A stretch of DNA of 64,000 nt from Escherichia phage vB_EcoM_005. Position numbers and translations under genes: made by a program. Below are positions 2,170-48,860 of this stretch, piece after piece. The stretch is from the sequence record MK295203; one strand, written 5' to 3'. Position 1 is the stretch's first letter. The number at the start of each line of letters is the position of its first letter. A model generated the notes under the pieces. It was not told the DNA's origin. It saw only the letters and a program-made list of their open reading frames with translations, and ran no database searches.

Positions 2170-2670
2170 ATGAATATGCAAATGATTACTAACGAAATGG
2201 TTGTTAAGGCTTTTGGTGACTCTACTGACGGTATCCAAGTTTTTAAAGGTTCTCGTGCAGTAGGTTACCTGACCGATCTTCGTGTTACTTTAGCTAAAAA
2301 TGCTAAAAAGAAAATCAAGCAAAAAGAATACTCTACCCGTTATGCAGAAGAAAAGCGTGAAGCCATGCCTGAAGCTGTCAACTCTATGGTTGAGTTTCTC
2401 CAAAACAACCTTTCTAAGTACGATGCCGAGGTATTCATCAATATTAGCCAACCTAATGTTAAAATCTCAGGCATCACTTTCTATTTGATTTGCGACCCAT
2501 TAAGCGACAAGTTTAATCGCCTTGGTATTTCAAGTCCTTACCATACAGCTGAAGAATTGTGTTTTATGTTCGAAACGTACAAAATTCAGTGCGAAAATCC
2601 TAAAACGGTTCTTATTAATTCCCTGTCACGTGATGACATCATCGAGATTATTACCAAATGTCTAAATTAA
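2170..2670 (+). CDS. alc: Alc-like protein (host transcription inhibitor) by size and synteny
   Basis: 166 aa ORF directly downstream of rnlA and upstream of the pseT cluster, as in T4 (Alc 167 aa); RBS GAGGAG. Confidence 0.55.
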   Translation: MNMQMITNEMVVKAFGDSTDGIQVFKGSRAVGYLTDLRVTLAKNAKKKIKQKEYSTRYAEEKREAMPEAVNSMVEFLQNNLSKYDAEVFINISQPNVKISGITFYLICDPLSDKFNRLGISSPYHTAEELCFMFETYKIQCENPKTVLINSLSRDDIIEIITKCLN

Positions 2671-3011
2671 GTATTTACCTTTTAGCTGGAGCCATTGCAG
2701 TAGGTGCTTACGGTTTTATTTCGTACCAATCAAGCCGTATTGATACATTAACCGAAGAACTGAAAACAACCCAGCAAACGGCCAAACAGAATGCCGAAGC
2801 CGTAGATGACCTTCGTGGTCAATACTCTGATATCGAATTCCGTACTACTGAAATGAATGCCCGAATGGATAAAATTAAGGTAGAAAATGAAAAGCTCCGT
2901 AAAGATTCGAAGAAGGCGCACGTGGTGGCAAGTAAGCCAGGACTGGTCGAAAAACAAATCAACAAGTCCTTCGATTCCTTTACAGAAGACTTCAGGAGCA
3001 TTACAGAATGA
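2658..3011 (+). CDS. Small membrane protein (pseT.3-like), N-terminal TM helix plus coiled coil
   Basis: MSKLSIYLLAGAIAVGAYGFISY hydrophobic N-terminus; position as in T4 pseT.3. Confidence 0.6.
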   Translation: MSKLSIYLLAGAIAVGAYGFISYQSSRIDTLTEELKTTQQTAKQNAEAVDDLRGQYSDIEFRTTEMNARMDKIKVENEKLRKDSKKAHVVASKPGLVEKQINKSFDSFTEDFRSITE

Positions 3012-3199
3012 TTAAATTATCTGTAGTAGTATTATCTATTGGCTTGTTAGTTGGATGTGCCCAGGACATCCCTGTAGTGCCTAAGCAACAACTACATCCT
3101 TCATGGCCACAACCTATTGCCAAACATAATGTTAAATGGCAGGTTAAGGTAATCGATGGTAAAGCTTGGGTTGGAATGCCATTTGAAGATTCCGAATGA
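3008..3199 (+). CDS. Small predicted lipoprotein (pseT.2-like)
   Basis: 63 aa; signal peptide with lipobox LVGC (MIKLSVVVLSIGLLVGCAQ). Confidence 0.55.
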   Translation: MIKLSVVVLSIGLLVGCAQDIPVVPKQQLHPSWPQPIAKHNVKWQVKVIDGKAWVGMPFEDSE

Positions 3200-3302
3200 T
3201 TGAGTCTTGTATCGATGGGTCGGATGTCATTCTATTTGGCTTTACATGCTTTTGTTTTGGAATCGTGCTTAGCATGTGTATAAATGGTATTTTTGGAAAG
3301 TA

Positions 3303-3332
3303 GTTTACAAACTCTTGGGAGCAGAGTATAAT
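3303..3332 (+). promoter_or_regulatory. T4-type early promoter (GTTTACA-N17-TATAAT)
   Basis: GTTTACAAACTCTTGGGAGCAGAGTATAAT; GGAGCA/TGCTCC stem around the -10. Confidence 0.6.
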
Positions 3333-3365
3333 GCTCCTACGGATTATAAAAATTGAGGAAATTAT

Positions 3366-3845
3366 TATGACTTTACGTGATAACAGTTTTGTGGCTAAGC
3401 CTGAATACATTTCAGGCGTTAAATCGCCTGCATTACAAAAGCTCCTAAAACTAGGGTCCTGTGCAAGTACACCACTTGAAAAGAAGGCAACTTTCGATTT
3501 TGCTTGGGCTATGGTAGACGGTATTGATGTAGTAAGACAGGTGTCTTTTTATGCTCCAGGGTCTATTGAGCCTTCGCAGATTATTAATTTGAATGGAAGT
3601 AATTATATTACCGTCCAACAGTGGTATCGTATGATGCGCCCGGTTTGGGAATACCCTGAATTCATTGAAGAGTACAATGAAAAAGAACGTATTCGTGAAT
3701 TGGTGAAAAGTTTTGAATACGCGGCTAAACGTCATGGACAAATGCAAGCTGCCGCTGCACTTGGTGATGTTTCTGAAAGTGCGGCATATGAAACTGGTAA
3801 AATCCTTAAAACCTGCCGTGAAGAACTTTATAAGGAACTTGGTGT

Positions 3846-32676: not shown

Positions 32677-32679
32677 AAT

Positions 32680-33339
32680 ATGAATTATTTAATTTACAAA
32701 ATAACCAATCTCATTAATAACAAGATTTATGTTGGAGCCCATGCCACTACAGATGTTAACGATTCTTATATGGGTTCTGGGGTTAACATAGTAAAATCCA
32801 TAAAGAAGCACGGTTTAGAGAATTTTAAAAAGGAAATCCTTTTCAATTTCGAAACACCTGAAGAGATGTATGCTAAGGAAGCCGAACTAGTTGATGAGGC
32901 TTTTGTCATGAGAACAGATACTTATAATGCTGCCTTAGGCGGTAAGGGTAATCCTGTTATAGTAGCTTTACAGGAACCCGGGTATCGTGAGATGTTATCC
33001 GAAAAGACCAAGGCCGGTATGACCAAGGAAGTAAGGGCCAAAATGTCTAAATCGAAAACAGGTTCTAAAGAATCCAAAGAGCACCGAGAAAACAAATCTA
33101 TAGCTAATAAAAAGTTTTACGAGAATAGGGATTCTCATCTTAAAGGTAGGAAACTATCAGAAGAACATAAAGCCAAAATTAGAAAGAATTCTAATAAAGG
33201 TAAGAAATTCGTATTTGTGGATATTTCTATTAAAGGTCATGAATTTAGCCATTACGATTACGCTGCCGAATTCTTTAACGTATCCGCAAAAACTATAAGA
33301 AATTGGATTAATGAACGCGATGATTGTTTTAAGCTATAG
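32680..33339 (+). CDS. segD: GIY-YIG homing endonuclease (SegD-like, between 24 and 23)
   Basis: MNYLIYKITNLINNKIYVGAH... GIY-YIG motif; same intergenic position as T4 segD. Confidence 0.8.
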   Translation: MNYLIYKITNLINNKIYVGAHATTDVNDSYMGSGVNIVKSIKKHGLENFKKEILFNFETPEEMYAKEAELVDEAFVMRTDTYNAALGGKGNPVIVALQEPGYREMLSEKTKAGMTKEVRAKMSKSKTGSKESKEHRENKSIANKKFYENRDSHLKGRKLSEEHKAKIRKNSNKGKKFVFVDISIKGHEFSHYDYAAEFFNVSAKTIRNWINERDDCFKL

Positions 33340-33375: not shown

Positions 33376-33436
33376 TTAAGAATTAATAACTTATGTTATT
33401 AAATTCCCTTAACGTAGACACGTCTAAAGTAACCAT

Positions 33437-34825
33437 TCAGACCGAGGCTGTTAACGATGTCAGGCATACCGCTCTGAATACGTTTGGTAGGAGCCTGTGC
33501 AGACGGGTCAGCGAACGGGTTGATACTGTGAAGTAATCGGAACGTGCATACTGGTCGATGTAAACGCGATATTTACCACCAAGAACACCGGCAAATACTG
33601 CTTTGGTTGTGTCAACGTTGAAACCCTGACCCAGACCTTGAGCTGCATAACTTACAGAAGTATCAACTGCAGCCAGTACGTTAACTACGTTACGGGAAGC
33701 GATGATGAAGTTACCAGCACCACGACCGGTCTGACGAGCGATTTCGGCTGCTTCTTTATCAATCTGGAACAGAAGGGCTTTAAAGCTCTCACCGGCCCAA
33801 CGAGCACCACGGATATCAATCGGGTCCTGGAAGTCAAACACACCAGCTTTAGCGCCAACGGTGTTGGTCATACCAGATTTACCAACCTGTGCAGAGTAGT
33901 TAATCCAATCGATAACTTCACGGTTGATTTCGAGCATAATTTCGGTAGCAAGGATACCGGACAGTTCAGCATCTGCATCCATACCGTGTACTGCACGAAG
34001 GTCCTGTGCCAGTTCGATAGAATAGCTTGCTTTCAGCTGACGGGATTTAGCTTCGATAACTTGTTTGTCGATGCGGAAGCCCATTTCGTTCCACGGGTTA
34101 TCCTGGGAACCGTTAAAGCCTTCCTGAAGTTCAGCGATAGAAGTAGCCATACCTTCAGCCAATTCAGCCAACTTACCAGCTTCAATCAAAGCGGTAACAG
34201 CAGCATCCAGTTTAGCGGCATCAGTAGCAGCAGCATCAACGGTTACAGCTTCAACAGCCTGGAAGTGTGCAGCACCGGTAGCTTCGAAGAAGTGAGAATA
34301 AATTTTACCAACTTCCAGAACTTTGCTTGCAGCCAGTGCTTCGAAAGATTCAGCAGCACCCTGACCAGAGAACATAGCGTTCGGAGCATACATCGGGTGG
34401 AAAGCTTCTTTAGCGCCAGCAGCGATAGGGTCTTTACCATAAACTGCGCGCAGGGCAAATACCTGGCCGGTAGGGTTATTCAGAGGCTGAACACCACAAA
34501 TATCAAAAGCAATCAGATGAGGAATAGCACGACGAACCATACCCATTACTGCAGGCCCAATCTGAGTTACAGCACCAGAAGTCTGGCCAGCTGCGATATT
34601 GGTAGCATCATAACCGTGGTCACCGCCAATTTCAGCTTCGGTCAGGAAAGAACCAAATGCTTCAGAGATTTTTTCATCACGGTATTCCGGAGCAGTCAGG
34701 ATGTCTTGTTCCTGGTTTTCGAAAATTTTAGCGATGATAGCTTGTTTAGAAGCACCTACGATTTCAGGAAGAGCTTCGTTTTCCAGCAGAGCGGACCATT
34801 TTTGAACTAATGCATTCTTTTTCAT
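33437..34825 (-). CDS. 23: Major capsid protein gp23, C-terminally frame-disrupted
   Basis: N-terminal ~425 aa colinear with T4 gp23 up to ...YIDQYARSDYFTV; the track ORF then ends in non-homologous residues, while the conserved C-terminus INPFADPSAQAPTKRIQSGMPDIVNSLGLNGYFRRVYVKGI* lies in another frame ending ~33409. Confidence 0.85.
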   Translation of the reverse strand: MKKNALVQKWSALLENEALPEIVGASKQAIIAKIFENQEQDILTAPEYRDEKISEAFGSFLTEAEIGGDHGYDATNIAAGQTSGAVTQIGPAVMGMVRRAIPHLIAFDICGVQPLNNPTGQVFALRAVYGKDPIAAGAKEAFHPMYAPNAMFSGQGAAESFEALAASKVLEVGKIYSHFFEATGAAHFQAVEAVTVDAAATDAAKLDAAVTALIEAGKLAELAEGMATSIAELQEGFNGSQDNPWNEMGFRIDKQVIEAKSRQLKASYSIELAQDLRAVHGMDADAELSGILATEIMLEINREVIDWINYSAQVGKSGMTNTVGAKAGVFDFQDPIDIRGARWAGESFKALLFQIDKEAAEIARQTGRGAGNFIIASRNVVNVLAAVDTSVSYAAQGLGQGFNVDTTKAVFAGVLGGKYRVYIDQYARSDYFTVSTRSLTRLHRLLPNVFRAVCLTSLTASV

Positions 34826-36657: not shown

Positions 36658-36926
36658 TATTCGTCGTCCTCGTCTTCGTCTTTATCATCACCTTCATCCG
36701 CATCGTCAGATTCTTTTTTGTCTTTCTTATCTGCTTTATCGGATTTTTTGTCATCTTCGTCTTCGTCATCTTTGTCGGCTTCTTCGCCTTCAATCATAAC
36801 GGAGCGAGCAATTTCTGCTTTACGGGCTTCAATCAAAGCGGCTACTCGAGATTCGATAAGCGGGCCTGCTGCTTTACGAACTGCTACGAGGTCGTTTGAT
36901 TTAATAGCTTCGATTAAATCTTCCAT
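36657..36926 (-). CDS. 67: Prohead core protein gp67 (highly acidic C-terminus)
   Basis: 89 aa with D/E/K-rich tail; synteny. Confidence 0.7.
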
Positions 36927-38500
36927 TAGAAATCCTCTTCTTCTTCATCTGGGTTTTGGAAACGAGCCTCTTTAGACTCTTCTTCAATTTGCTTAGCTTC
37001 TTGATTAATTTCTTCGTCAGTCATTTGGAGGAAATCTTTCATAGCCGTTTGATGTGAAATGTACTTACCAATAAATGGTTCAGCCATCGTTAGCATATTG
37101 ATTCTGCGTTCCATGATTTCAGCATCTTTCATTTCACTGAAATAGCTATCACGGTTAAACGTAACTTTAATATTATTTATTTCCTTTTCCCACTCATCTT
37201 CTGTAATAATCTTTTTAAGAATGAGGTTTGTTTTTAACGGGTCTAGGAAAATTTCTTCAAATTTGTTTTGTAACTGACGAATCCATTTAGAGAATTTTAA
37301 TTCGTCACGAGTGATTGCTGTACCGGCATCAAACATAACACCAGAATTGGACTCGCTAGGGATACGTGATTCAGGAACACGCAGCGCACGATAAAGTGCT
37401 GTGCGGAAATAAAGAACGTCGTCCATATCACTCATACCAGTAGCGCCTGGCATTGTATCAACTTCTGTAACCGCTTTACCATCACGACGTTGCAACCAAT
37501 AGTCTTCAGTCATGGACATATTGTGTTGTTGGTTTTTAATTTTACCTGTCGAAGCATCATACACCACACGGTTTTTCATCGTGTTCATGATATGTTGCAT
37601 TTGTGCTGCAGCCTTACGTGAAGGCATATTACCTGTATCGATATAAAACACACGACGGTCAGGAGCACGTGTAATACGGTAGATGACCATTGCGTCTTCC
37701 ATCAATTTAAGCTGGTTTGCAGGCTTAATAGCACGTTGCAAATAGCCAATGATGTTTTTACCACAACAATCTAATAATCCAGAATGAGCATAAACCACTG
37801 CAGCACGAGGAATTTTAACTTTAGTCCCGGCTGAATAAATGCGTCCATCAGCGCAATAACTTTCATGGCCTGTATCATAAACGAAAAACTCGCGATATCC
37901 GTCTACAACTTTAACGCCATCTTCCATACGTGTAACGATTTCACGAATATATTGGACTTGGCGTGGGTCTAAGCGACGAAGCTCTTGTACGCCATCTTTC
38001 ATTTTTTTAGGGTTTATAATTTTATGAAAGAAAATTCTTGAGTCTACATACCAGCGTTGGAAATGGTCAGTACCTTTACGTTGGAAATTTAAAAGGTTTA
38101 AAACTTCACTGAATTCGGCCAAGATTTTATCTTTAATTGCTTGACTAAATTCTGTCCCGTCTAAATTCAATGCAACTACTTCTTTATCATCCTCATAGAC
38201 AATAGCGTCAGACACAATTTCCTGTACGGCGTTGTCGACTTCATAGTTGTTCATTAAATTACGGTAGGTATCAATAAGTTCCCTGGTATTTTTAACTTCA
38301 GGCTCATTACTACCAAACATCTGTTGCATAAGAGCATTATAAGGAATATTTTGCTCTTGTGTCTCAATTTCGCGAGCGCCATCATCAAGCTTAGGTGCGG
38401 TGACAGACTCTAAATTGTTATTAATTTGTTGTTTATATTCTTTTTCGTCTTCATTAGCCCATGGCTTAAGAAAACTTAATATTGTATTAAAGTTTGCCAT
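36926..38500 (-). CDS. 20: Portal vertex protein gp20
   Basis: 524 aa, identical in length to T4 gp20; synteny. Confidence 0.88.
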
Positions 38501-38548
38501 TAGAGTCTCCGATGAATGGGATAAGGAGCCGAAGCTCCTTGATAATTC

Positions 38549-38556
38549 TATTTATA
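38549..38556 (-). promoter_or_regulatory. Late promoter (TATAAATA) for gene 20
   Basis: + strand TATTTATA between the seg stop and the gp20 start. Confidence 0.5.
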
Positions 38557-38557
38557 C

Positions 38558-39139
38558 TCATTCATTTTCATGTTTGTGATAACGTGTTATAGCCGAACGA
38601 GTTGATTCAACACCACAGATAGGGCAAATCATCCTTGGCTGATTAATCTTTTTGCCTTTAGCCGGATGTTCTTTACCAAACATCGGATTACCTTCACCAG
38701 ACATAGCTTTGGCTTGGTCTGGTCGCTTACGTCCTTTTAGAGCTTTAGAATGTTCAGGCCTCTTTTTACCTAACCTACAATCTCTTTGTAGCTGTTTGGC
38801 ATGTTCACTCATTGGAATCCCTTTACGAGACATTCCAAAGAACCCGTCAGGCTGAGCTAATGACATATTTATATAGTTTTTAGATTTAACTACATTATAC
38901 TTTATTTGAAGCTCTTTCTCAGCTATACGAGCTTCTTTATCGGTTTCAAATAAAGATAAAATTCTGGTTTTGAAAAGGTGCGGATTTTCTTTACGTTCTA
39001 GATTCCAAATCTTTTTATATGCTTGGGATAATACAGAACCATTATATCCTTCTTTGAGAATCCTTTCAACGTATGTTGAGCCAATATAACGACGGGGTAG
39101 TTTAGACCCCGTGTATATGGTTAAGTAAGTACAATACAT
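38558..39139 (-). CDS. GIY-YIG-type homing endonuclease (Seg-like) between genes 19 and 20
   Basis: YLTIYTGSKLPRRYIGST GIY-YIG-like N-terminus; repeated GKKRPEHSKALKGRKRP basic (NUMOD3-like) repeats; C-terminal CPICG zinc finger; T4 has no gene here. Confidence 0.7.
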   Translation of the reverse strand: MYCTYLTIYTGSKLPRRYIGSTYVERILKEGYNGSVLSQAYKKIWNLERKENPHLFKTRILSLFETDKEARIAEKELQIKYNVVKSKNYINMSLAQPDGFFGMSRKGIPMSEHAKQLQRDCRLGKKRPEHSKALKGRKRPDQAKAMSGEGNPMFGKEHPAKGKKINQPRMICPICGVESTRSAITRYHKHENE

Positions 39140-39159
39140 TCTAAACTCCTTGACTTCAT

Positions 39160-39167
39160 TGTTTGAA
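39160..39167 (-). promoter_or_regulatory. Late promoter (TATAAATA) upstream of seg
   Basis: + strand TATTTATA between the gp19 stop and the seg start. Confidence 0.5.
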
Positions 39168-39206
39168 TGTATTTATACTATCATAATTTGCTATAAAAGT
39201 AAAAAC

Positions 39207-39698
39207 TTATTCCCACCAGTCAATAGCAAATGTGCTTTCAAATGTTTCTACCTCGTTATTCGAGTCCCAGTCCATCTGGACTTCACCAACGTTAGTAGGC
39301 CATAAGCCGTAAATTGTAACTTCTTTGGTCACAGTCTTGCCGTCACGATGGAACTGGCGAACTACTGCTTGTTTCTTATATTCTGCAGGTGCTGCACCGG
39401 TAATTTCATTGGTCATACCGTGACAGAGATTCTGCCAATCGACAATTGCTTGACGGGTGTCATGTGCATCATCGTTATAAATGGTAATTGTCCAATCATC
39501 AAACGTACGGTCACCAGCTACGTTAATTTTACGGTTCATGTAGCCAACCGGTACTTTTTCTACAATGCCTGCCGGCATAGGTGCTGCTTTACATTTAAAG
39601 CTAAAGTTTTTACCCAGAAATGGAATTTCCACTTCGAAAAGGTTAGGGCGTGCAAAGTCACCTGACTCGAAGGCCCTAGTGATATCCGTAAGTTCCAT
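39207..39698 (-). CDS. 19: Tail tube protein gp19
   Basis: 163 aa, identical in length to T4 gp19. Confidence 0.88.
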   Translation of the reverse strand: MELTDITRAFESGDFARPNLFEVEIPFLGKNFSFKCKAAPMPAGIVEKVPVGYMNRKINVAGDRTFDDWTITIYNDDAHDTRQAIVDWQNLCHGMTNEITGAAPAEYKKQAVVRQFHRDGKTVTKEVTIYGLWPTNVGEVQMDWDSNNEVETFESTFAIDWWE

Positions 39699-39701
39699 AA
39701 G

Positions 39702-40385
39702 TTAGTGTTTCCTATCATATTCTTCAATTAAATGGAATAGCATATCTAAATCTATACTATTTTTAGAATCTTTACTTCGATTCTTTTCCCAAGGAATCAT
39801 TTCTAGATTGCAAATGTGTCCTATTATTTCGGGAGGGACGCCATTTTCAAATCCATATTTGATAGATACCCTATGGTCTAATTGATAAGCTCCTTTAACA
39901 CCACATATCCCGCTTAGATGTCTATTTGGTAGATTATCAACTTCTTCTTTAAAAGTCTTATTAGTAAAAGACCTCACTGAATAATAATATTTATTACGTT
40001 CAGATTTGTTAGGATTCCATCTTCCGTTTTTAGGTCCTGAACAAGCTTCAATCTTTATACCTTTTTTAGACTTAGAAATTTTAGGCCCTTTGGTTTTACG
40101 GATTTTTATGCCTTCATCAGAATTCCAATATTCTTTTCTTGTTTCTGAATAGACTTCCCAACGATGCTCTTTACAGAACTTAGAATTGGTTTCATTAAGT
40201 CGCCCTTTTGTTACAGTATAATAAATGCCACATTTATCACATTTACACGTAACAGCCATTTTTCCAGGACAGTCTTCTAATTTTATTAAATGGGAGCTTC
40301 CACTTTTAACTTGATATCCAAGATTTTTAAAAGCAGAAACATTGCGATTCGTTATAGGTATTTCAAATAGAGTATTAGTAATCAT
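39702..40385 (-). CDS. HNH homing endonuclease between genes 18 and 19
   Basis: YQLDHRVSIKYG...GHICNLEMIPWEKNRSK HNH (His-Me finger) motif; N-terminal CKCDKCG...CKEH zinc finger; T4 genes 18 and 19 are adjacent. Confidence 0.75.
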   Translation of the reverse strand: MITNTLFEIPITNRNVSAFKNLGYQVKSGSSHLIKLEDCPGKMAVTCKCDKCGIYYTVTKGRLNETNSKFCKEHRWEVYSETRKEYWNSDEGIKIRKTKGPKISKSKKGIKIEACSGPKNGRWNPNKSERNKYYYSVRSFTNKTFKEEVDNLPNRHLSGICGVKGAYQLDHRVSIKYGFENGVPPEIIGHICNLEMIPWEKNRSKDSKNSIDLDMLFHLIEEYDRKH

Positions 40386-40390
40386 ACTTA

Positions 40391-40398
40391 TATTTATA
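40391..40398 (-). promoter_or_regulatory. Late promoter (TATAAATA) upstream of HNH gene
   Basis: + strand TATTTATA immediately upstream of the HNH start. Confidence 0.5.
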
Positions 40399-40475
40399 TA
40401 CCAGAAAGTCGCAGGATTGCGCCTGCGACGTTTTTAGTTATACAGTTGATAAATCATATTCCTAAAGAATAATCA

Positions 40476-40560
40476 ATCCCAGGCTCAATTCTACGTGATG
40501 TACGCTGTAACCAAACTCATGGTATAATGGTTTTAGGTTCTTTATATTACAGCCTGGGAT
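40476..40560. repeat. Perfect 10-bp inverted repeat (ATCCCAGGCT / AGCCTGGGAT) with 65-nt spacer, just downstream of gene 18
   Basis: Arms at 40476-40485 and 40551-40560; spacer contains CATGGTATAATGG. Confidence 0.6.
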
Positions 40561-40566
40561 AATAGA

Positions 40567-42402
40567 TTATACTAACGGTCCAATCAATTCATCAAAATCA
40601 GCACCAGTGCTCGTTGCAACGAAGTTCAACGTGATGTAGTTAATAGAACGAGCAGGTTTAACGTAGATATTAGCAATAAACTCATTACGGTCGATAACCG
40701 CAGGGGTGTTCACTGTAGTATCACAAACCACACGTCCTTCATAAATCCCACCAAGTGCCTTAATACCATCTAAGTACTGAGAAACTTCCATACGGAAGCT
40801 TGAACGGGTGAAGTTATCGTTCAATTCAAACAGTTTATATTTAGAGGCATCACCGATATTTTTCTTAAGCATGTTGAACAGACGGCGAACGTTAATATGG
40901 TCCATCGGAGATGGAACTTTAGTTGCAGTCTTATCACCAAACAATACGAAACCATCACCACCAGCAAAACCAACAACTGGGTTAATAGCTTCCTGGTACA
41001 TGCGGTCACGTTGGGATTGACGAGGTTCAATTGCCAATTTCAGAACGTTAAGAATCTGGCCACGGTTATAACCAGCCGGAGACATCCAAGGCTGAGACAC
41101 ATCATCCGTACGGGCACACAAACCAGCCATATCAGCCGCTAACGGAACCCAACGATTAACGTCGTTATATTTGTCATACTGATATTTATAGTTGCCGTCA
41201 ATTGCAGCATAAGTGGTGCTAATGTTCATGTTGTTGGTATCAAACAATGCTGCACCGGTACGCCAGTCGATAAGGTTATCTACTGCACGAGTCAATGGAA
41301 CGTTAACCAACAGACCTTTAGGAGGAGAAATAAATGCCAAGCAATCCTGACGTTCATCAGCAATGCTCACAACATGTTTCTGGACGGTCGAAGCAACTTC
41401 GTCACCTTCACCGTAGTTCAGCGAGGTAGCGAAGATATAGTTCGAAGTACCTTTAGCGAAATAGTCATCAAGATAAATGTTATTACCGTAAACGTCTTTT
41501 TCGCCTTCTTTGGTAGAAAGTACGACGGATTCTACGATTGCACCGTCACGGCGAACAATAATAGCATATTGGTCTTCTGTTTGAGGACCGTAGTTGAATA
41601 CTGCTTTAGCTACAGAAGCACGAGTACCGCCATTTGGATAAATATCCAACATTTTATTAGAACCAGCATCATAAGCCGCTTTAGAAACAATTTCAACTTC
41701 CAGAGTACTACCAATTTCACCAGGATAAAGGGCGACCACACCAGGCATACCAAACTGTTTAAGAGATGCTTGGAATTCCAGGGAAGTAATAGCTTCTTCA
41801 CTGTTCTCTGCTTCAGTCAACAGAATACCGGAATCGGTTACAATTTTACCGACAGTAATAGTACCAGAAACACCGGAAGAGGCAGAAGTAACTTCAGCAG
41901 TCCACGCCGGGCCGAGGTTCGGATATTGGTTAACAGAACGAGCATAAGAAATAATCTTGCCTGTAGGAATAAACACCGATAGAATTTTACCGTCTGTATC
42001 GACCGAAGTTACACGACCTTCAGATTCGATTACAGTTTGGTTATATTTGATATTAATTTTATCGCCTACCGCATAGTTAGAACCTGCAGTAGTAATAGTG
42101 GTTTGGACGTTACCTGCTATCGGAGATGCGTTTTTAGCGAATTCACGGTTAACAACACGAACAGTACGAAGGTCATTACCGTACTGGAGGAAGTTCATAC
42201 CCGACATGAAGTAATCGGCAACTTCGTTATTAGGACCTCCAAATAAGTCAACCAGTTCAACTTCATTAGTAATCTGAGTTACCTGGAAAGCAGGGCCCCA
42301 CTGGAATTTACCAACCAGCGCTGCACGACCCGTTGCGTTACGAACGACAGTACTCTGTACGGACGTTTCTTTGAGCTCAATGCCCGGTGATAATAAAGCC
42401 AT
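40567..42402 (-). CDS. 18: Tail sheath protein gp18
   Basis: 611 aa (T4 659 aa); MALLSPGIELKETSVQS... Confidence 0.88.
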   Translation of the reverse strand: MALLSPGIELKETSVQSTVVRNATGRAALVGKFQWGPAFQVTQITNEVELVDLFGGPNNEVADYFMSGMNFLQYGNDLRTVRVVNREFAKNASPIAGNVQTTITTAGSNYAVGDKINIKYNQTVIESEGRVTSVDTDGKILSVFIPTGKIISYARSVNQYPNLGPAWTAEVTSASSGVSGTITVGKIVTDSGILLTEAENSEEAITSLEFQASLKQFGMPGVVALYPGEIGSTLEVEIVSKAAYDAGSNKMLDIYPNGGTRASVAKAVFNYGPQTEDQYAIIVRRDGAIVESVVLSTKEGEKDVYGNNIYLDDYFAKGTSNYIFATSLNYGEGDEVASTVQKHVVSIADERQDCLAFISPPKGLLVNVPLTRAVDNLIDWRTGAALFDTNNMNISTTYAAIDGNYKYQYDKYNDVNRWVPLAADMAGLCARTDDVSQPWMSPAGYNRGQILNVLKLAIEPRQSQRDRMYQEAINPVVGFAGGDGFVLFGDKTATKVPSPMDHINVRRLFNMLKKNIGDASKYKLFELNDNFTRSSFRMEVSQYLDGIKALGGIYEGRVVCDTTVNTPAVIDRNEFIANIYVKPARSINYITLNFVATSTGADFDELIGPLV

Positions 42403-42420
42403 TTTGAATCCTCTTGGTTA

Positions 42421-42428
42421 TGCTTTAT
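42421..42428 (-). promoter_or_regulatory. Late promoter (TATAAATA) for gene 18
   Basis: + strand TATTTATA ~20 nt upstream of the gp18 start. Confidence 0.55.
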
Positions 42429-42434
42429 TGTTAT

Positions 42435-44741
<2,307 letters not shown>

Positions 44742-44745
<4 letters not shown>

Positions 44746-45608
44746 GGGTTTCTCCTTGGTGCTGGAGGCGCTGGCTCGACAGGCACTGGAATATCTTGTG
44801 AATATGTTTGAACGGAACTTCCATCCCATTCTGTTTGTTCTACACCTCTCGGAACCACTTCGCTATCAACCGATTCGAAATTACCTTCAGGAGCGAGTTC
44901 CTTTGAGTTAGCAAAGAAATCAAGATAAATGGTTTTAATTTCGCCTTCCATTTCTTTAACTGGAGGATATAACCACCCGTTAACCTCAAACATCATGGAC
45001 CATTCTAAACGACGACGAGAAGTGGTATCGCCTTCTAATTGTTCGTCCATTGCAATAGACTGGAACACAATACGAATATCACGGTCAAATTTAATCTCGT
45101 TTGTATAGAGTTCAGTGATTGTTGTATTAAAGTGAGGTTGGAAATAAGGCATAATCTGTTCCACAATTTGGAACATATCATCTTGGGTTCTAGTGTAAAT
45201 ACCCAGTTCGAAAATCATTTTAACCGGAGTAGGAGAATATTGGCTAACCCGTTTACGAGGGTCACCATTCTCAAATTGAATTTGTGTTCTGTTCTGAAGA
45301 GCTGTTTTGTATTGTGAGTTATAAAGCATATCAACCATTTGAAGGTTCATACGTGGAAGAACTGTTTCCACTTTAGCCTTTTGTTCAGCTCGTTCTTTAG
45401 GAGACGTATTGGGATTTGGAATATTCTGTACTGCCGTCCATTTGCCCAAATTTGCCATAAATCTTTCTTTAGAAGCATACGTGATAGGAACCTTAATAAA
45501 TTTAAGCCCTGTATCTTCTCTTTGACGTGCTACTTGAACATGGGAAAATAAATCACCCATCAAAACAATATAGCGACGTAGCGAACTATTATAAAAGTGA
45601 CCGAACAT
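44742..45608 (-). CDS. 15: Tail sheath stabilizer / tail completion protein gp15
   Basis: 288 aa (T4 272 aa); synteny. Confidence 0.8.
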
Positions 45609-46195
45609 TACTCACCTCTCATTTTACAATTATCATTATGCCAACGATTTATAAGATGGTATCCTATCATCTTGTGGCAATGTGGACACTCTACTTTTCT
45701 CTTTGGTACACCTGTTTGGGCTTGTCCAAAGGATACGGTATGTTCTGCTGAAAGCTTTTTGCCTTTGTGGGTTTCACTGGCTCTCTTTTTAGCATACTCT
45801 CCGTGATGTTTACCAAAAAATGGATTCAATTCACCTATACGAGTTTTACCCCAGGCTGATTTAACCCTCTTCATTTCTATACGGGCTTCTTCGTATTTTA
45901 TTTTTAATTCTTCTTCGGATAAATTTAAATTTCTACGTTCAGAACTACTAAACATAATCCAAAAGGCTAAAATCATTTTAGGGTCTTTTGTTTTTGCTAA
46001 GATTGCATGCGCCTCTAGATGGTCTAAAACATCTATAGAAACTATATTTTCCGGCGTGTTTTCGTATTCTGGAAATAAAGACCTAGGGAGAATATGATGT
46101 TTTTCGGTGTATTCTGTTTTAGGTGGCTTGGAGACCACCGCCAGATATTCATCTGTCAAATCCCCAAGCCATAATCCTACTTTTTCTTCTATCAT
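45608..46195 (-). CDS. HNH homing endonuclease (Mob-like) between genes 14 and 15
   Basis: HHILPRSLFPEYENTPENIVSIDVLDHLEAH HNH motif; C-terminal CPHCH...C zinc finger. Confidence 0.75.
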   Translation of the reverse strand: MIEEKVGLWLGDLTDEYLAVVSKPPKTEYTEKHHILPRSLFPEYENTPENIVSIDVLDHLEAHAILAKTKDPKMILAFWIMFSSSERRNLNLSEEELKIKYEEARIEMKRVKSAWGKTRIGELNPFFGKHHGEYAKKRASETHKGKKLSAEHTVSFGQAQTGVPKRKVECPHCHKMIGYHLINRWHNDNCKMRGE

Positions 46196-46204
46196 AGAAG
46201 TTAT

Positions 46205-46908
46205 TTAATCATCTAAAAAAGCATCATCAAATGCTGTAGGAGGAGCATCTTCTCCTCGTCCATTAATTACAACATAAGGATGTACGAATTCAGCCGCTTC
46301 GGCATTAATCTCATTGACCTCTTCGTATTGAATGTCGGAGATATCAGCCAACCCGTCGATATTCTTAACAGGCATTAAATCAAGCTCACTGAATTCAGGA
46401 ATATTAATACCTTCATTTCTCTGTAATTCAGGACGAAGTTCTTCACCATTGTAAATGAACTTGGTAGCGGTAATTCGACGCTGGACGTTAGCACCTACTT
46501 GATAGAATGGGTCGTAAGGTTGTACCCAGTTAATTTCGAATAGGCTTATTATCCATTGGGAAATAAATCAAGTCGCCTGAAACAGGTTCAGTGCCATTGC
46601 ATTGATGTTTAAAAAGGTTAGGGTTAATTGTGATTGTTACTTCATCATTAACCATCATACCGAACTTACTGAAAGCCTATTCGGTCATTGGCATTTAACA
46701 TATTCACGTGGTATATAATAAAGCTCAATACCACGCATTTGAATAGACTCAGCAACTAAAGCATCAGCCAATGTTTGGGTATTCTCATGCTTGTAATGGT
46801 CGCCATTGGGTCATTGACAAAGGGATTGAGAATTTCGGCTTCGTTCGTATTAGCGTAACCTGTATTATTTTCTAGTTTGGCGAAAAGACTAGAATCAAAT
46901 GTCGACAT
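46205..46908 (-). pseudogene. 14: Neck protein gp14, multiply frame-disrupted
   Basis: Track ORF stops after [36 protein letters not shown]; conserved segments ([34 protein letters not shown]; [41 protein letters not shown]; [32 protein letters not shown]...FLDD*) continue in three different frames. Confidence 0.7.
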
Positions 46909-47521
46909 AACTCCACTCCTTCCATTTAGGTTTATCATTCTTTATTCTATTAATAACTGCGCTTTTGACTATACCAAAATACTCGGCGCATTCTTTACCT
47001 GTCGAGAATACCATTTCTCCGACTCTAACTGCTCTGGCCGCAGGATTTTTACTACCGGTAAAATCTGGGTGTTTCACACGCGTCCACATTAATGCGGTAG
47101 ATTCTTTTCTACGCTTTAGCCCTTCTTCAGTCCATTCTCTTGATTTTGCCGCCTCTGACATTCTTTTTCTTGATTCTATAGAACGGGTTTTACCTATATT
47201 AGGGTTATCTTTAGGATTGTAATAAGAAGGACCACCTTGTCCTCCTTTTACCAAATTAACACACTGAGCAAAATCTTCTTTAAGAATATCGACTAAAAGT
47301 TCTTCGGCTTCCTTTAATAATTCCGGATTACCGAAATCTTTCGACCATAATACCTGTTTTATACAGTTTCGTCCATATTTTTTCTTAGCATTCGAAATAT
47401 ACGTTCCTGAGCCAACGTATGAATCCAGCTTTGGATTAGATTTATCCGAATGTCTTTTACCGCCATAAATTTTTAATCCGTCCGACGTTTCAAACTCAGT
47501 CACGTATAATCTATAAAACAT
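46895..47521 (-). CDS. GIY-YIG homing endonuclease (Seg-like) inserted at the 13/14 junction
   Basis: [24 protein letters not shown]...YVGSG GIY-YIG motif; C-terminal HTH; track ORF 46895..47668 is fused in frame to a duplicated gene-14 N-terminal fragment. Confidence 0.75.
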
Positions 47522-47715
47522 AATTATCCAATTAAAATAGGTGTTGGTGGGTCGAGTAAATCTAATTCGAAAGTTGACGAAAGGGTTCATTATTTCAGTT
47601 TCGTTCGTGTTAGCATAGCCAGTATTATCTTCTAGCTTAGCGAATAAACTCGAATCGAAAGTAGCCATAATTATCCAATTAAAATAGGTGTTGGTGGGTC
47701 GAGTAAATCTAATTC
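47520..47715. repeat. Two exact 50-bp direct repeats flanking a duplicated gene-14 5' fragment
   Basis: CATAATTATCCAATTAAAATAGGTGTTGGTGGGTCGAGTAAATCTAATTC at ~47520-47569 and ~47666-47715; the 96 bp between encodes [32 protein letters not shown]. Confidence 0.75.
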
Positions 47716-48839
47716 CTCGCGAAGTCGTTCTTTTTCTAAACGAGCTTCTTCAATCAATCGAATAGCCATCTACAGTGGTTCCACCTGCAAGTTGCATGCC
47801 TTGGTGTTTGGCTAAAATATTACCATTGACCTCTTTAACCAGTGCCGTAGCATAATCTTTAACCCAACGGTTATTATATGCACCAGTCTTGAAGACCAAG
47901 GTCCTCACCTACACGCATACCAGAAATACGACGTGATGGATTATCCCAAACAGCTCCAGGGCTCCATTCATTTTCGTCACACCCACCAGAGGCATATCCA
48001 TATCCTGCAGTATTTCCTACCATAGAATCAACCCCATTAAAAGAGCGAGTATAAACTTCAATTACAATAAAATCACCTTTAACAAAGTTACCCATTACCT
48101 TCAACTGTTCAGTGGCATCGTTATACCAATAATCAGGCAACAAAATATTACCATTGACTTCTTTAACCAATGCCGTCGCATAATCTTTGACCCAACGGTT
48201 ATTATATGAACCATCTTGCAAACCAAGGTCTTCACCTGCCCTCATACCTGAAATACGACGAGCCGGGTTATCCCAAATAGCTCCGGGGCTCCATTCATTT
48301 TCGTCACACCCACCAGAGGCATATCCATATCCTGCAGTATTTCCTACCATAGAATCAACCCCATTAAAAGTGGAACCAAAAGGTCTTGCATCATAGAACG
48401 ATATTGCATTAATTGTGTAAAATAACCAAGGTCGGCACCGAAGGCATTAGGCCCAAAGCTGTTACAAGAAGGTTCCAAGACCACCATTAATACCGGCCAA
48501 GCCTAATACAAAATCAGTAAACCATGGATAAGTCGCTTGGCCATCCATAGATGTTAAAGAACCCACGTTGGTTCTCAAAATTTGTGTTACCGCAAATATA
48601 TTACGGCCTTTAAGGTCAAATACACCGTTACGGAATTTTTCTTCGTCATCATGGCCTATATAAAAAGCCTGATAACCTTTGTTATAGCCGTTATAATGAT
48701 ACTCACCGTAGAGCTCCAGTGCGCGCTGGATGCAATCGTATACTTGGTCTGTAGTTACTTCAATATTTGTAATCGGTGCACCCAGGCGGCGCAGGATTGC
48801 GTCCTTGAGTTGCTTAGGGTTATATGATTCACTTGCCAT
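47672..48839 (-). pseudogene. 13: Neck protein gp13 with internal tandem duplication, in-frame stops and frameshifts
   Basis: N-terminal 125 aa (track ORF 48462..48839) match T4 gp13, then two in-frame stops; track ORF 47874..48350 holds [43 protein letters not shown] twice, 107 codons apart; C-terminus ...[28 protein letters not shown] is in another frame. Confidence 0.65.
47815..48365. repeat. Tandem duplication (~230 bp units, ~320 bp period, ~90% identity) inside gene 13
   Basis: AAAATATTACCATTGAC.TCTTTAACCA.TGCCGT.GCATAATCTTT... at ~47815 and again at ~48135. Confidence 0.7.
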
Positions 48840-48860
48840 GGTTTATTCCTCTAATAACCG

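What the first reader, a model, noticed from the sequence alone, without database searches (positions are those of the whole stretch)
38558..40398. Two freestanding homing endonuclease genes between tail genes 20/19 and 19/18, each with its own late promoter
A Seg-like GIY-YIG gene sits between the portal and tail-tube genes, and an HNH gene between tail tube and sheath. T4 has no genes at these positions. Each is preceded by a TATAAATA late promoter. With the endonucleases at 441, 32680, 45608 and 46895, that makes six in 64 kb, a high density.
Basis: partly seen in the sequence, partly recalled or inferred. Interest (0 to 1): 0.45.

Follow-up and report, generated by a model that had tools for sequence, protein, structure and literature searches.

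The report
Two homing endonuclease genes flanking gene 19
Two selfish DNA-cutting-enzyme genes have inserted on either side of the tail-tube gene of a T4-like E. coli phage; this kind of mobile element is well known, but here it has left unusually clean footprints of how it spreads.

Summary
The window is a Dhakavirus (JS98-like T4-type coliphage). ORF1 (38558-39139, minus strand, 193 aa) lies between g20 and g19. ORF2 (39702-40385, minus strand, 227 aa) lies between g19 and g18. T4 and most Dhakavirus relatives have only short gaps at these positions.

- **Insertions:** both are precise cassette insertions, 649 bp and about 743 bp.
- **Footprints in g19:** each insertion is linked to a patch of purely synonymous changes at the adjacent end of g19. 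All four presence/absence combinations exist, and each patch follows its own gene.
- **Promoters:** both genes have a TATAAATA box that is conserved in other genera. ORF2's box lies 5 nt from the ATG, which predicts a leaderless mRNA, and it replaces g19's native promoter.
- **Density:** six endonucleases in 64 kb equals T4's own density.

Verdict: new, uncharacterised members of a known kind of element.

The parts
38549..38556 (-). Late promoter box TATAAATA of g20. It is retained immediately downstream of the ORF1 stop codon.
   Evidence: The same ...GAATGAGTATAAATAG... context follows the g19 stop codon in endonuclease-free JS98.
38558..39206 (-). ORF1 cassette, a 649-bp insertion relative to JS98/WG01/PSD9/IME08. 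The ends are ambiguous by 6 nt because TYATTC occurs at both ends. It consists of a late promoter, a Shine-Dalgarno sequence and ORF1, inserted exactly at the g19 stop codon.
   Evidence: Alignments. The cassette is 100% identical in IME540, Bp7 and QL01.
38558..39139 (-). ORF1, 193 aa: a SegE-like GIY-YIG free-standing homing endonuclease.
   Evidence: (phrog_314, E 1e-29). dN/dS across genera is 0.13-0.19.
38840..39139 (-). ORF1 residues 1-100: the GIY-YIG catalytic domain. TIY9 and Y18-IG are present, and E74 and N91 are invariant.
38639..38839 (-). ORF1 residues 101-167: basic linker with NUMOD3-like repeats, a presumed DNA-binding region.
   Evidence: NUMOD3 scores 16.1 bits here, below the cut-off, but 39 of 44 family members match it. 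The profile weakly matches the I-TevI DNA-binding domain 1i3j.
38561..38638 (-). ORF1 residues 168-193: a C2H2-like zinc finger (C172-x2-C175-x12-H188-x-H190).
   Evidence: Sequence. AF2 predicts beta-beta-alpha at residues 169-188. Six to seven family members match zf-C2H2.
39170..39177 (-). ORF1 late promoter box TATAAATA, 30 nt upstream of the ATG. The AAGGAG Shine-Dalgarno sequence lies between them.
   Evidence: The box and the following CATTCAAA... are conserved in Pectobacterium phage PM2.
39207..39698 (-). g19 tail-tube gene, the gene flanked by both cassettes and their presumed target.
   Evidence: Pfam Phage_T4_gp19. In every Dhakavirus compared, the 25 N-terminal and 25 C-terminal gp19 residues, which span both patches, are identical.
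39208..39270 (-). 3' recoded patch of g19: 15 synonymous differences between ORF1+ and ORF1- genomes.
   Evidence: (Fisher p 4e-12 against the middle of the gene). The window-type allele is in 4 of 4 ORF1+ genomes and another allele is in 8 of 8 ORF1- genomes.
39669..39693 (-). 5' recoded patch of g19: 8 synonymous differences between ORF2+ and ORF2- genomes.
   Evidence: (p 9e-9). The window-type allele is in 6 of 6 ORF2+ genomes and the other allele is in 5 of 5 ORF2- genomes. The Bp7 chimera is intermediate.
39699..40441 (-). ORF2 cassette, about 743 bp. It replaces about 60 bp of the empty allele, namely g19's native TATAAATA, a 5'-UTR hairpin and the Shine-Dalgarno sequence. The cassette order is hairpin, late promoter, ORF2, with g19's new Shine-Dalgarno sequence (AGGAAA) inside the end of ORF2.
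   Evidence: Alignments.
39702..40385 (-). ORF2, 227 aa: a probable HNH-type (His-Me finger) free-standing homing endonuclease.
   Evidence: (phrog_5104, function unknown, E 2e-77). dN/dS is 0.08-0.21.
39705..39938 (-). ORF2 residues 150-227: the nuclease-like domain. It carries GAYQLDH(170-171)...N193-L...N202..K205 on a predicted beta-(insert)-beta-alpha unit.
40146..40385 (-). ORF2 residues 1-80: an N-terminal beta-rich module with a Cys/His zinc site (C49-x2-C52...C71-x2-H74), presumed to recognise DNA.
   Evidence: In other family members this position holds arrays of HTH domains. In Bp7 this half is retained while the nuclease half is swapped.
40391..40398 (-). ORF2 late promoter box TATAAATA, 5 nt from the ATG with no Shine-Dalgarno sequence. 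The predicted transcript starts at the A of the ATG (leaderless). It is also the only perfect late box upstream of g19.
   Evidence: The same 5-6 nt spacing occurs in CHI14 and Entb_43. The T4 late box occupies positions -13 to -6 (PMC1524935).
40408..40429 (-). GC-rich hairpin (8 bp stem) just upstream of the ORF2 promoter. It is part of the cassette and may act as a terminator or insulator for g18 read-through.
   Evidence: An analogous hairpin precedes the promoter box in Entb_43 and CHI14.

Best explanation
Two independent free-standing homing endonuclease gene cassettes bracket the tail-tube gene g19 of a Dhakavirus. ORF1 is a SegE-like GIY-YIG enzyme: an N-terminal catalytic domain, a NUMOD3-like linker and a C-terminal zinc finger. 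ORF2 is a divergent HNH/His-Me-finger enzyme with the reverse layout: an N-terminal zinc-containing recognition module and a C-terminal nuclease domain.

Inferred mechanism ('intronless homing', as established for T4 seg and mob genes). In a mixed infection, each enzyme cuts or nicks the endonuclease-free allele in or near the adjacent end of g19. The break is resected and repaired from the endonuclease-carrying genome. This copies the cassette together with a short flank of donor g19 sequence. That flank is synonymously recoded. It is therefore either the co-conversion tract, or the reason the carrier genome is immune to its own enzyme, or both.

Both genes are timed to late infection by their own TATAAATA promoters. 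ORF2's promoter would give a leaderless, weakly translated mRNA. It has also replaced g19's native promoter, so the essential g19 is now co-transcribed with the endonuclease, which disfavours loss of the cassette.

Shown: ORFs, folds and motifs, precise insertion boundaries, sporadic and independent distribution, patch-to-gene linkage, purifying selection, and promoter motifs conserved across genera. Inferred: nuclease activity, target sites, homing, promoter use, and the leaderless start.
For: - **Identity and context:**
- **Mobility:** clean 649-bp and about 743-bp indels against JS98/WG01/PSD9/IME08. Metagenome contigs carry the identical ORF2 but no ORF1, so all four presence/absence states exist. 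g19 carries 15 synonymous differences in its last 65 nt and 8 in its first 30 nt, against 2 in the 397 nt between (p 4e-12 and 9e-9). Each patch co-segregates perfectly with its neighbouring gene.
- **Same sites elsewhere:** orthologues sit at the same two sites in Karamvirus, Winklervirus, Mosugukvirus, Tequatrovirus and Gelderlandvirus.
- **Selection:** dN/dS is 0.08-0.21.
- **Promoters:**
- **Framework:** intronless homing, co-conversion, embedded promoters and late-promoter control of endonucleases are described in PMC2988022.
Against: - No curated profile reaches its cut-off for either catalytic domain in the window proteins: SegE_GIY-YIG 17.6 < 25, TIGR01453 14.5 < 56, and no HNH model at all for ORF2.
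- The canonical GIY-YIG arginine (I-TevI R27) is not conserved at the expected helix position in the ORF1 family.
- ORF1 is 100% identical among the four carriers, so recent spread within Dhakavirus cannot be distinguished from shared ancestry of that segment.
- The recoded patches could be plain recombination tracts.
- One-mismatch late boxes inside ORF2 (AATAAATA at 39988-39995, TAAAAATA at 39758-39765) could still serve g19, which weakens the promoter-dependence argument.
- No activity, cut-site or transcript data exist.
Confidence: 0.8

Rival explanations
1. The genes derive from endonucleases but are now kept mainly as weapons or regulators. They would exclude the g19 region of competing phages in co-infection (marker exclusion), or bind their own promoter or site as repressors. 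They would no longer be actively homing selfish elements.
For: Strong purifying selection persists across genera (dN/dS 0.13-0.21). The genes keep their positions in several genera. The ORF2 promoter also drives an essential gene. Autorepression and exclusion roles are documented for T4 endonucleases (PMC2988022).
Against: Occupancy inside Dhakavirus is sporadic, and the two genes assort independently. This is what ongoing gain and loss predicts. Exclusion and homing are two outcomes of the same cleavage, so this is more a refinement than an alternative.
Confidence: 0.1
2. ORF2 is not a nuclease. It is a zinc-finger DNA- or RNA-binding protein of unknown function whose C-terminal motif only resembles HNH.
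Against: The invariant residues are exactly those an HNN-type His-Me finger needs (D-H at a strand end, N-L, then N..K in the helix), and they hold across 5272 family representatives. HNH enzymes top both structure searches. The domain is fused to interchangeable DNA-binding modules. The insertion behaves like a mobile cassette with a linked flank.
Confidence: 0.1
3. The recoded patches in g19 and the presence/absence pattern reflect ordinary mosaic recombination among co-circulating Dhakavirus lineages, with no endonuclease action. The ORFs are passive 'morons'.
For: T4-like phages recombine freely. Other short divergent patches occur nearby, for example in g18 at 41140-41260 and 41560-41620.
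Against: Both patches abut the cassettes exactly. They are only 25-65 nt long and consist of synonymous changes only. They co-segregate perfectly and independently with the adjacent ORF in 12 genomes or contigs. A third, analogous patch (20 of 60 nt) lies beside the QL01/PSD9-type paralogue at the g18 end. Both ORFs carry nuclease folds or motifs.
Confidence: 0.05

Closest known systems
T4 SegE (and the Seg family: free-standing GIY-YIG homing endonucleases of T4)
   Same: ORF1 is free-standing and intergenic. It has an N-terminal GIY-YIG domain followed by a DNA-binding tail. Its family profile aligns with SegE over 72 columns at 93.7% probability. It is patchily distributed and linked to flanking-sequence conversion, as described for seg genes (PMC2988022).
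   Different: It sits at a different locus (g19/g20, whereas segE lies between inh and uvsW). Identity to SegE is low. Pfam SegE_GIY-YIG scores below its cut-off. ORF1 has a C-terminal C2H2-like zinc finger. The canonical catalytic arginine position is not conserved. Activity is untested.
I-TevI (intron-encoded GIY-YIG endonuclease of the T4 td intron)
   Different: ORF1 is not inside an intron. It has a C-terminal zinc finger where I-TevI has an HTH. TIGR01453 scores 14.5 against a cut-off of 56.
HNH / His-Me-finger phage endonucleases (T4 Mob proteins, I-HmuI-type HNN enzymes, GVE2 and Gme HNH nickases)
   Different: T4 mob genes have the HNH domain followed by a distinct C-terminal region (PMC2988022). 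In ORF2 the nuclease domain is C-terminal. There is no significant sequence-profile link to any Pfam HNH model, nor to the window's own mob-like ORF 45608-46195. The spacing between H and the first N is long (22 residues, with two short helices inserted).
T4 segG/gene 32 and similar cases where an endonuclease cassette carries the promoter of the downstream essential gene
   Same: The ORF2 cassette removed g19's native late promoter, and g19 now lies directly behind ORF2. The review argues that this arrangement favours retention of the endonuclease.
   Different: In this case the promoter lies upstream of the endonuclease ORF instead of being embedded within it, so the endonuclease and g19 would share one late transcript. 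Weaker one-mismatch boxes inside ORF2 cannot be excluded.

Membership tests
GIY-YIG homing endonucleases (Seg-like) - ORF1 | GIY-YIG alpha/beta fold (three-stranded sheet with flanking helices) | tested here: met
GIY-YIG homing endonucleases (Seg-like) - ORF1 | Conserved catalytic or motif residues (Tyr of GIY, Tyr of YIG, Arg, Glu, Asn) | tested here: inconclusive
   Y9 (TIY), Y18 (YIG), E74 and N91 are invariant in 44 relatives, with spacing like I-TevI Y6/Y17/E75/N90 (the I-TevI numbering is from memory). The expected Arg on the first helix (R26 here) varies as R/K/N/S. R17, K57 and R59 are conserved and could substitute; this was not tested.
GIY-YIG homing endonucleases (Seg-like) - ORF1 | Significant match to a curated family model or to a characterised member | tested here: inconclusive
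   Pfam SegE_GIY-YIG scores 17.6 against a cut-off of 25, and TIGR01453 scores 14.5 against 56. However, the family profile against T4 SegE gives 93.7% by hhalign, E 1.9e-7, phrog_314 'homing endonuclease' matches at E 1e-29, and 18 of 44 relatives match SegE_GIY-YIG weakly.
GIY-YIG homing endonucleases (Seg-like) - ORF1 | Separate DNA-binding region (NUMOD3 / zinc finger / HTH) after the catalytic domain | tested here: met
   NUMOD3 is found in 39 of 44 relatives (16.1 bits here, below the 20.4 cut-off). A C2H2-like finger spans C172 to H190.
Free-standing homing endonuclease gene (both ORFs) | Intergenic and not inside an intron or intein, present in some close relatives and precisely absent in others | tested here: met
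   The empty alleles in JS98/WG01/PSD9/IME08 have 57-bp and 185-bp gaps.
Free-standing homing endonuclease gene (both ORFs) | Flanking-sequence co-conversion or a target site altered in carrier genomes | tested here: met
   Synonymous patches at both ends of g19 co-segregate with the adjacent ORF. The pattern is compatible with co-conversion or immunity but does not prove either mechanism.
Free-standing homing endonuclease gene (both ORFs) | Site-specific cleavage of the endonuclease-free allele and super-Mendelian inheritance in crosses | not testable with these tools
   This needs enzyme assays and phage crosses.
HNH / His-Me-finger nucleases - ORF2 | Beta-beta-alpha-metal fold | tested here: inconclusive
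HNH / His-Me-finger nucleases - ORF2 | Catalytic His (general base) preceded by Asp, a structural Asn, and a metal-binding Asn or His in the helix | tested here: met
   D170-H171, N193 and N202 (plus K205) are invariant in 18 close relatives, and H/N/N/K are invariant in 45- and 44-member wider sets.
HNH / His-Me-finger nucleases - ORF2 | Match to a curated HNH profile at threshold | tested here: not met
   There is no Pfam or NCBIfam HNH hit for the window protein. Only 2 of 18 and 4 of 45 relatives match HNH_4, at E about 1e-3. A profile search of PDB sequences finds no HNH.
T4 Mob family (MobA-E) - ORF2 | HNH domain followed by a distinct C-terminal region, with sequence similarity to mob genes | tested here: not met
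   ORF2 has the nuclease-like domain at the C-terminus. hhalign against the window's mob-like ORF 45608-46195 gives 0.1% probability. The Mob architecture is taken from PMC2988022.
T4-type late gene | TATAAATA at -13 to -6 upstream of the gene | tested here: met
   Perfect boxes lie at 39170-39177 and 40391-40398. They are conserved in orthologues from other genera. Actual use of these promoters is untested.

The most novel reading that the evidence does not exclude
ORF2 represents a large His-Me-finger nuclease domain family that curated libraries do not recognise as HNH. It has at least 5272 cluster representatives, and the domain is always C-terminal behind interchangeable DNA-binding modules. 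In T4-type phages its g19-proximal lineage is expressed from a leaderless late mRNA: TATAAATA lies 5-6 nt from the ATG, with no Shine-Dalgarno sequence, in three genera. That promoter has replaced the promoter of the essential tail-tube gene. This selfish element would therefore have made itself hard to delete while keeping its own translation minimal.
Probability: 0.3. Interest if true: 0.5.

Novelty: new member of a known kind. Interest (0 to 1): 0.35.

Why it matters
Free-standing homing endonucleases are a main driver of mosaicism and marker exclusion in T4-type phages, yet few are characterised outside T4. This locus is a compact natural experiment. A 492-bp essential gene is bracketed by two unrelated endonuclease cassettes, and all four occupancy states are available in sequenced isolates or contigs. 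Short synonymous patches point to where each enzyme probably acts. That makes target-site mapping and homing crosses easy to design.

The work also corrects public annotation. ORF1 orthologues are labelled 'HNH endonuclease' or 'hypothetical protein' but are GIY-YIG. RB5/6/7/9/10 carry an unannotated paralogue of ORF2. It also flags a widespread nuclease-like domain that Pfam, NCBIfam and PHROGs do not name. For phage engineering and therapy, where Dhakavirus phages are used against E. coli, such genes affect recombination outcomes in cocktails.

Tried and rejected
- Single-sequence and profile searches of PDB sequences gave nothing useful for either catalytic domain. The only result was a weak match to the I-TevI DNA-binding linker for ORF1, plus spurious antibody, zinc-finger and LRR matches for ORF2.
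- NCBIfam gave no call for ORF2 and a far sub-threshold one for ORF1.
- Foldseek against the PDB was not significant for ORF2. The afdb50 library was unavailable.
- hhalign of the ORF2 domain against the window's other HNH-type ORF found no relationship.
- A wider profile search enlarged the ORF2 domain family greatly, but the hits have no Pfam HNH annotation. The HNH call therefore still rests on motif, topology and weak structural hits.
- Rfam found no RNA family in 38300-40800 apart from one chance CrcZ fragment.
- Literature searches found no paper describing endonucleases at the 18/19 or 19/20 junctions, or leaderless late mRNAs in T4 endonucleases.
- I considered and rejected the idea that these are typical conserved genes of the lineage, because most Dhakavirus genomes lack them.
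- I considered and rejected an intron or intein location, because both ORFs are intergenic and g19 is intact.
Full report
**1. What the sequence is**

The window is part of a Dhakavirus (JS98-like, T4-type) coliphage genome. The stretch 36900-42500 is 98% identical to phage IME540 and 93-97% identical to Bp7, QL01, WG01, JS98 and IME08. From 33 to 45 kb all genes run on the minus strand. Pfam identifies gp20 portal (36926-38500), gp19 tail tube (39207-39698) and gp18 sheath (40567-42402).

- ORF1, 38558-39139, 193 aa, between g20 and g19.
- ORF2, 39702-40385, 227 aa, between g19 and g18.

In T4 the corresponding gaps are 83 and 116 bp and hold no gene.

**2. ORF1 classification**

Curated models fall short for ORF1. 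SegE_GIY-YIG scores 17.6 bits against a cut-off of 25, NUMOD3 scores 16.1 against 20.4, and TIGR01453 scores 14.5 against 56. PHROGs does place it in a homing-endonuclease family (phrog_314, E 1e-29).

The tail of the protein carries NUMOD3-type repeats, found in 39 of 44 relatives, and a C2H2-like zinc finger.

'Seg-like GIY-YIG' is therefore supported, with one reservation. The arginine expected on the first helix is not conserved. RefSeq labels the identical Bp7 and QL01 proteins, and the PM2 orthologue, 'HNH endonuclease', and that label is wrong.

**3. ORF2 classification**

No Pfam or NCBIfam family reaches significance for ORF2, and its PHROG (5104) has no assigned function.

Eighteen homologues share two features. 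One is an N-terminal module with a Cys/His zinc site. The other is a C-terminal block, GAYQLDH-x-S-x-x-GF...IIGHI-x-NL-x-x-I-x-W-x-x-N-x-x-K, with D170, H171, N193, L194, N202 and K205 invariant.

The model (pLDDT 86) places D-H at the end of a strand, N-L at the start of the next strand, and N202 in the following helix. This is the beta-beta-alpha-metal layout.

A profile of the domain finds 5272 cluster representatives. The domain is always at the C-terminus and often follows arrays of HTH domains, which is the modular design of site-specific nucleases.

I rate the HNH assignment at about 0.75. ORF2 is not a member of the T4 Mob family, whose HNH domain comes first, and it shows no profile similarity to the window's mob-like ORF.

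**4. Insertion sites**

*ORF1 cassette.* Against the empty alleles of JS98, WG01, PSD9 and IME08, the ORF1 cassette is a 649-bp insertion exactly at the g19 stop codon. In empty genomes g19 ends ...GAATGA, followed by G and then the g20 late box TATAAATA. In the window g19 ends ...GAATAA, the cassette follows, and ORF1 itself ends ...GAATGA-G-TATAAATA.

*ORF2 cassette.* This cassette is about 743 bp. It replaces about 60 bp of the empty allele that contain g19's own TATAAATA, a hairpin and the Shine-Dalgarno sequence. g19's new Shine-Dalgarno sequence lies inside the last codons of ORF2.

*Other states of the 18/19 gap.* Bp7 carries a chimera with the same N-terminal half as ORF2 but a swapped nuclease half. 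QL01 and PSD9 carry a 206-aa paralogue, 37% identical to ORF2, inserted next to the g18 stop instead.

**5. Footprints in g19**

In all Dhakavirus genomes compared, the 25 N-terminal and 25 C-terminal residues of gp19, the stretches that span both patches, are identical. Nevertheless the window differs from WG01 at 15 synonymous positions in the last 65 nt of g19 and at 8 in the first 30 nt. Only 2 differences lie in the 397 nt between (Fisher p 4e-12 and 9e-9).

Metagenome contigs that encode the identical ORF2 lack ORF1, so all four occupancy states exist. Across 12 genomes or contigs:

| g19 patch | Adjacent gene present | Adjacent gene absent |
|---|---|---|
| 5' patch | window-type allele in 6 of 6 ORF2+ | other allele in 5 of 5 ORF2- (Bp7 chimera intermediate) |
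| 3' patch | window-type allele in 4 of 4 ORF1+ | other allele in 8 of 8 ORF1- |

The two patches vary independently of each other.

A third patch (20 of 60 nt) lies in the 3' end of g18, beside the QL01-type paralogue. IME08 has this patch but no gene, which may be a footprint of past occupancy.

This is the pattern expected from homing with co-conversion of flanks, from target sites recoded in carriers, or from both (framework: PMC2988022).

**6. Wider distribution**

ORF1 orthologues (63-83% identity) lie between g19 and g20 in Pectobacterium phage PM2 and Enterobacter phage Entb_43. Close homologues (66-70% identity) also occur in Citrobacter phage Moon and further Enterobacter phages, but their genomic position was not examined.

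ORF2 orthologues lie between g18 and g19 in Serratia phage CHI14 (68% identity) and in Entb_43 (41% identity). Homologues at 54-72% identity also occur in Klebsiella, Erwinia and VR26 phages, whose positions were not examined.

The g18-proximal paralogue occurs in RB5 and S16. Near-identical tblastn matches in RB6/7/9/10 and matches in HP3 and pSs-1 suggest the same there. In RB5 it lies in an unannotated 763-bp gap.

Entb_43 has both genes around g19, as the window does. Occupancy is patchy in every genus examined. dN/dS between genera is 0.13-0.21, so both genes encode proteins under selection.

**7. Expression signals**

Both ORFs are preceded by perfect TATAAATA boxes. The window has 19 such boxes against about 6.6 expected.

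ORF1's box lies 30 nt upstream of its ATG, with an AAGGAG Shine-Dalgarno sequence between them. The box and the adjoining sequence recur in PM2.

ORF2's box lies 5 nt from its ATG with no Shine-Dalgarno sequence. The same 5-6 nt spacing recurs in CHI14 and Entb_43, although the surrounding sequence differs. The T4 late box occupies positions -13 to -6 (PMC1524935), so the predicted transcript starts at the A of the ATG and would be leaderless. This is an inference.

A GC-rich hairpin (40408-40429) precedes the box. There is no other perfect late box between this promoter and g19. Only one-mismatch variants lie inside ORF2. g19 is therefore probably co-transcribed with ORF2, and this arrangement would disfavour loss of the cassette (compare embedded promoters in T4). 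The g18-proximal paralogues start with GTG and have no box.

**8. The 'six in 64 kb' claim**

The other four candidates all match PHROG homing-endonuclease families. One of them, 32680-33339, passes TIGR01453 and sits where T4 segD sits. Six in 64 kb equals T4's own density of 15 in 169 kb. In 2010 that density was called unmatched among relatives.

No isolate in the phage collection carries all six:
- IME540 lacks the segD-like gene.
- IME540 also appears to lack both genes between g15 and g13 (72% coverage of that region, the same as WG01).
- KIT01 and MX01 have only one of the genes between g15 and g13.

The window also has disrupted essential genes, described under things noticed in passing. 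The count may therefore be inflated by a chimeric assembly. The region of this finding is itself replicated in independent isolates at 99-100% identity.

**9. Verdict**

These are uncharacterised members of a well-known class, the free-standing homing endonuclease genes of T4-type phages. The added value is the very clean, independently assorting recoded patches in g19, the promoter replacement and the predicted leaderless mRNA of ORF2, and a large nuclease-like domain family that curated libraries do not name.

- Novelty: new member of a known kind.
- Interest: 0.35.

Noticed in passing
window 33399-34825 (g23), deletion point about 33528: The major capsid gene carries a 133-bp deletion relative to IME540. 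The deletion shifts the frame, so ORF 33437-34825 ends in junk. The true C-terminus (...RRVYVKGI*) lies in another frame and ends near 33399. This would be lethal if real, so I suspect an assembly artefact or a defective genome.
   Followed up: partly
window about 41413 (g18, 40567-42402): The sheath gene is 611 aa here, against 660 aa in all seven relatives and in a metagenome contig. The cause is a 147-bp in-frame deletion unique to the window.
   Followed up: partly
window 46200-48840 (g14/g13 neck genes and ORF 46895-47668): The GIY-YIG-type ORF 46895-47668 begins with a duplicate of the first 32 residues of gp14. The body of g14 is split over two frames, with about 85 bp missing near 46674-46695. 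g13 contains a 230-bp tandem duplication (47814-48043 and 48142-48370, 92% identical) and is split over three frames. No phage in the collection has both endonuclease genes here.
   Followed up: partly
window 32677-33334 (ORF 32680-33339, + strand): A segD-like GIY-YIG gene (TIGR01453 57.8 bits, above the cut-off) lies between g24 and g23 on the opposite strand, as T4 segD does. It is a 658-bp insertion that is absent from IME540. The g23 deletion lies only about 190 bp away.
   Followed up: partly
L002 (Bp7) 3036-3707, compared with window 39702-40385: The Bp7 gene at the 18/19 site is a chimera. Its 5' half is about 97% identical to ORF2. From the linker (window about 40060) onward, the nuclease half comes from a different sub-lineage. 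The g19 5' patch in Bp7 is intermediate. This is a natural domain swap.
   Followed up: partly
L003 (QL01) 3204-3824, L005 (PSD9) 2558-3178, and window 40600-40659 for comparison: A paralogue of ORF2 (206 aa, 37% identical) is inserted next to the g18 stop in QL01 and PSD9. It has its own divergent patch of 20 of 60 nt in the g18 3' end. IME08 carries that patch but no gene, which may be a footprint of a lost cassette.
   Followed up: partly
L014 (RB5) 2463-3225: RB5 has an unannotated 763-bp gap between g18 and g19. The gap encodes a full-length 205-aa homologue of the QL01-type endonuclease (59% identical). RB6, RB7, RB9 and RB10 give the same tblastn match with nothing annotated under it. 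S16 annotates only a 106-aa fragment there.
   Followed up: partly
L002 1858-2439, L003 1859-2440, L012 2501-3076: RefSeq names the ORF1 orthologues 'HNH endonuclease'. The fold and the link to SegE show they are GIY-YIG enzymes.
   Followed up: yes
window 42927-42941 (minus strand, inside g17): A TATAAATA box lies 4 nt before an in-frame ATG inside the large-terminase gene. It resembles the internal transcription and translation starts annotated for T4 gene 17. It is also a precedent for a late box placed directly against a start codon.
   Followed up: no
window 40442-40566: The roughly 120-bp non-coding spacer between g18 and the ORF2 cassette is conserved across the Dhakavirus genomes aligned here. 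It is closed by a long-range stem, CCCAGGCU...GGCCUGGG. The fold z-score is only -2.0, and its function is unknown.
   Followed up: partly
L017-L020 (metagenome contigs): The exact ORF2 protein occurs on at least nine contigs from gut or environmental metagenomes. On the four contigs that extend through the 19/20 gap (L017-L020) ORF1 is absent. On L017 the sheath gene is a normal 660 aa.
   Followed up: yes
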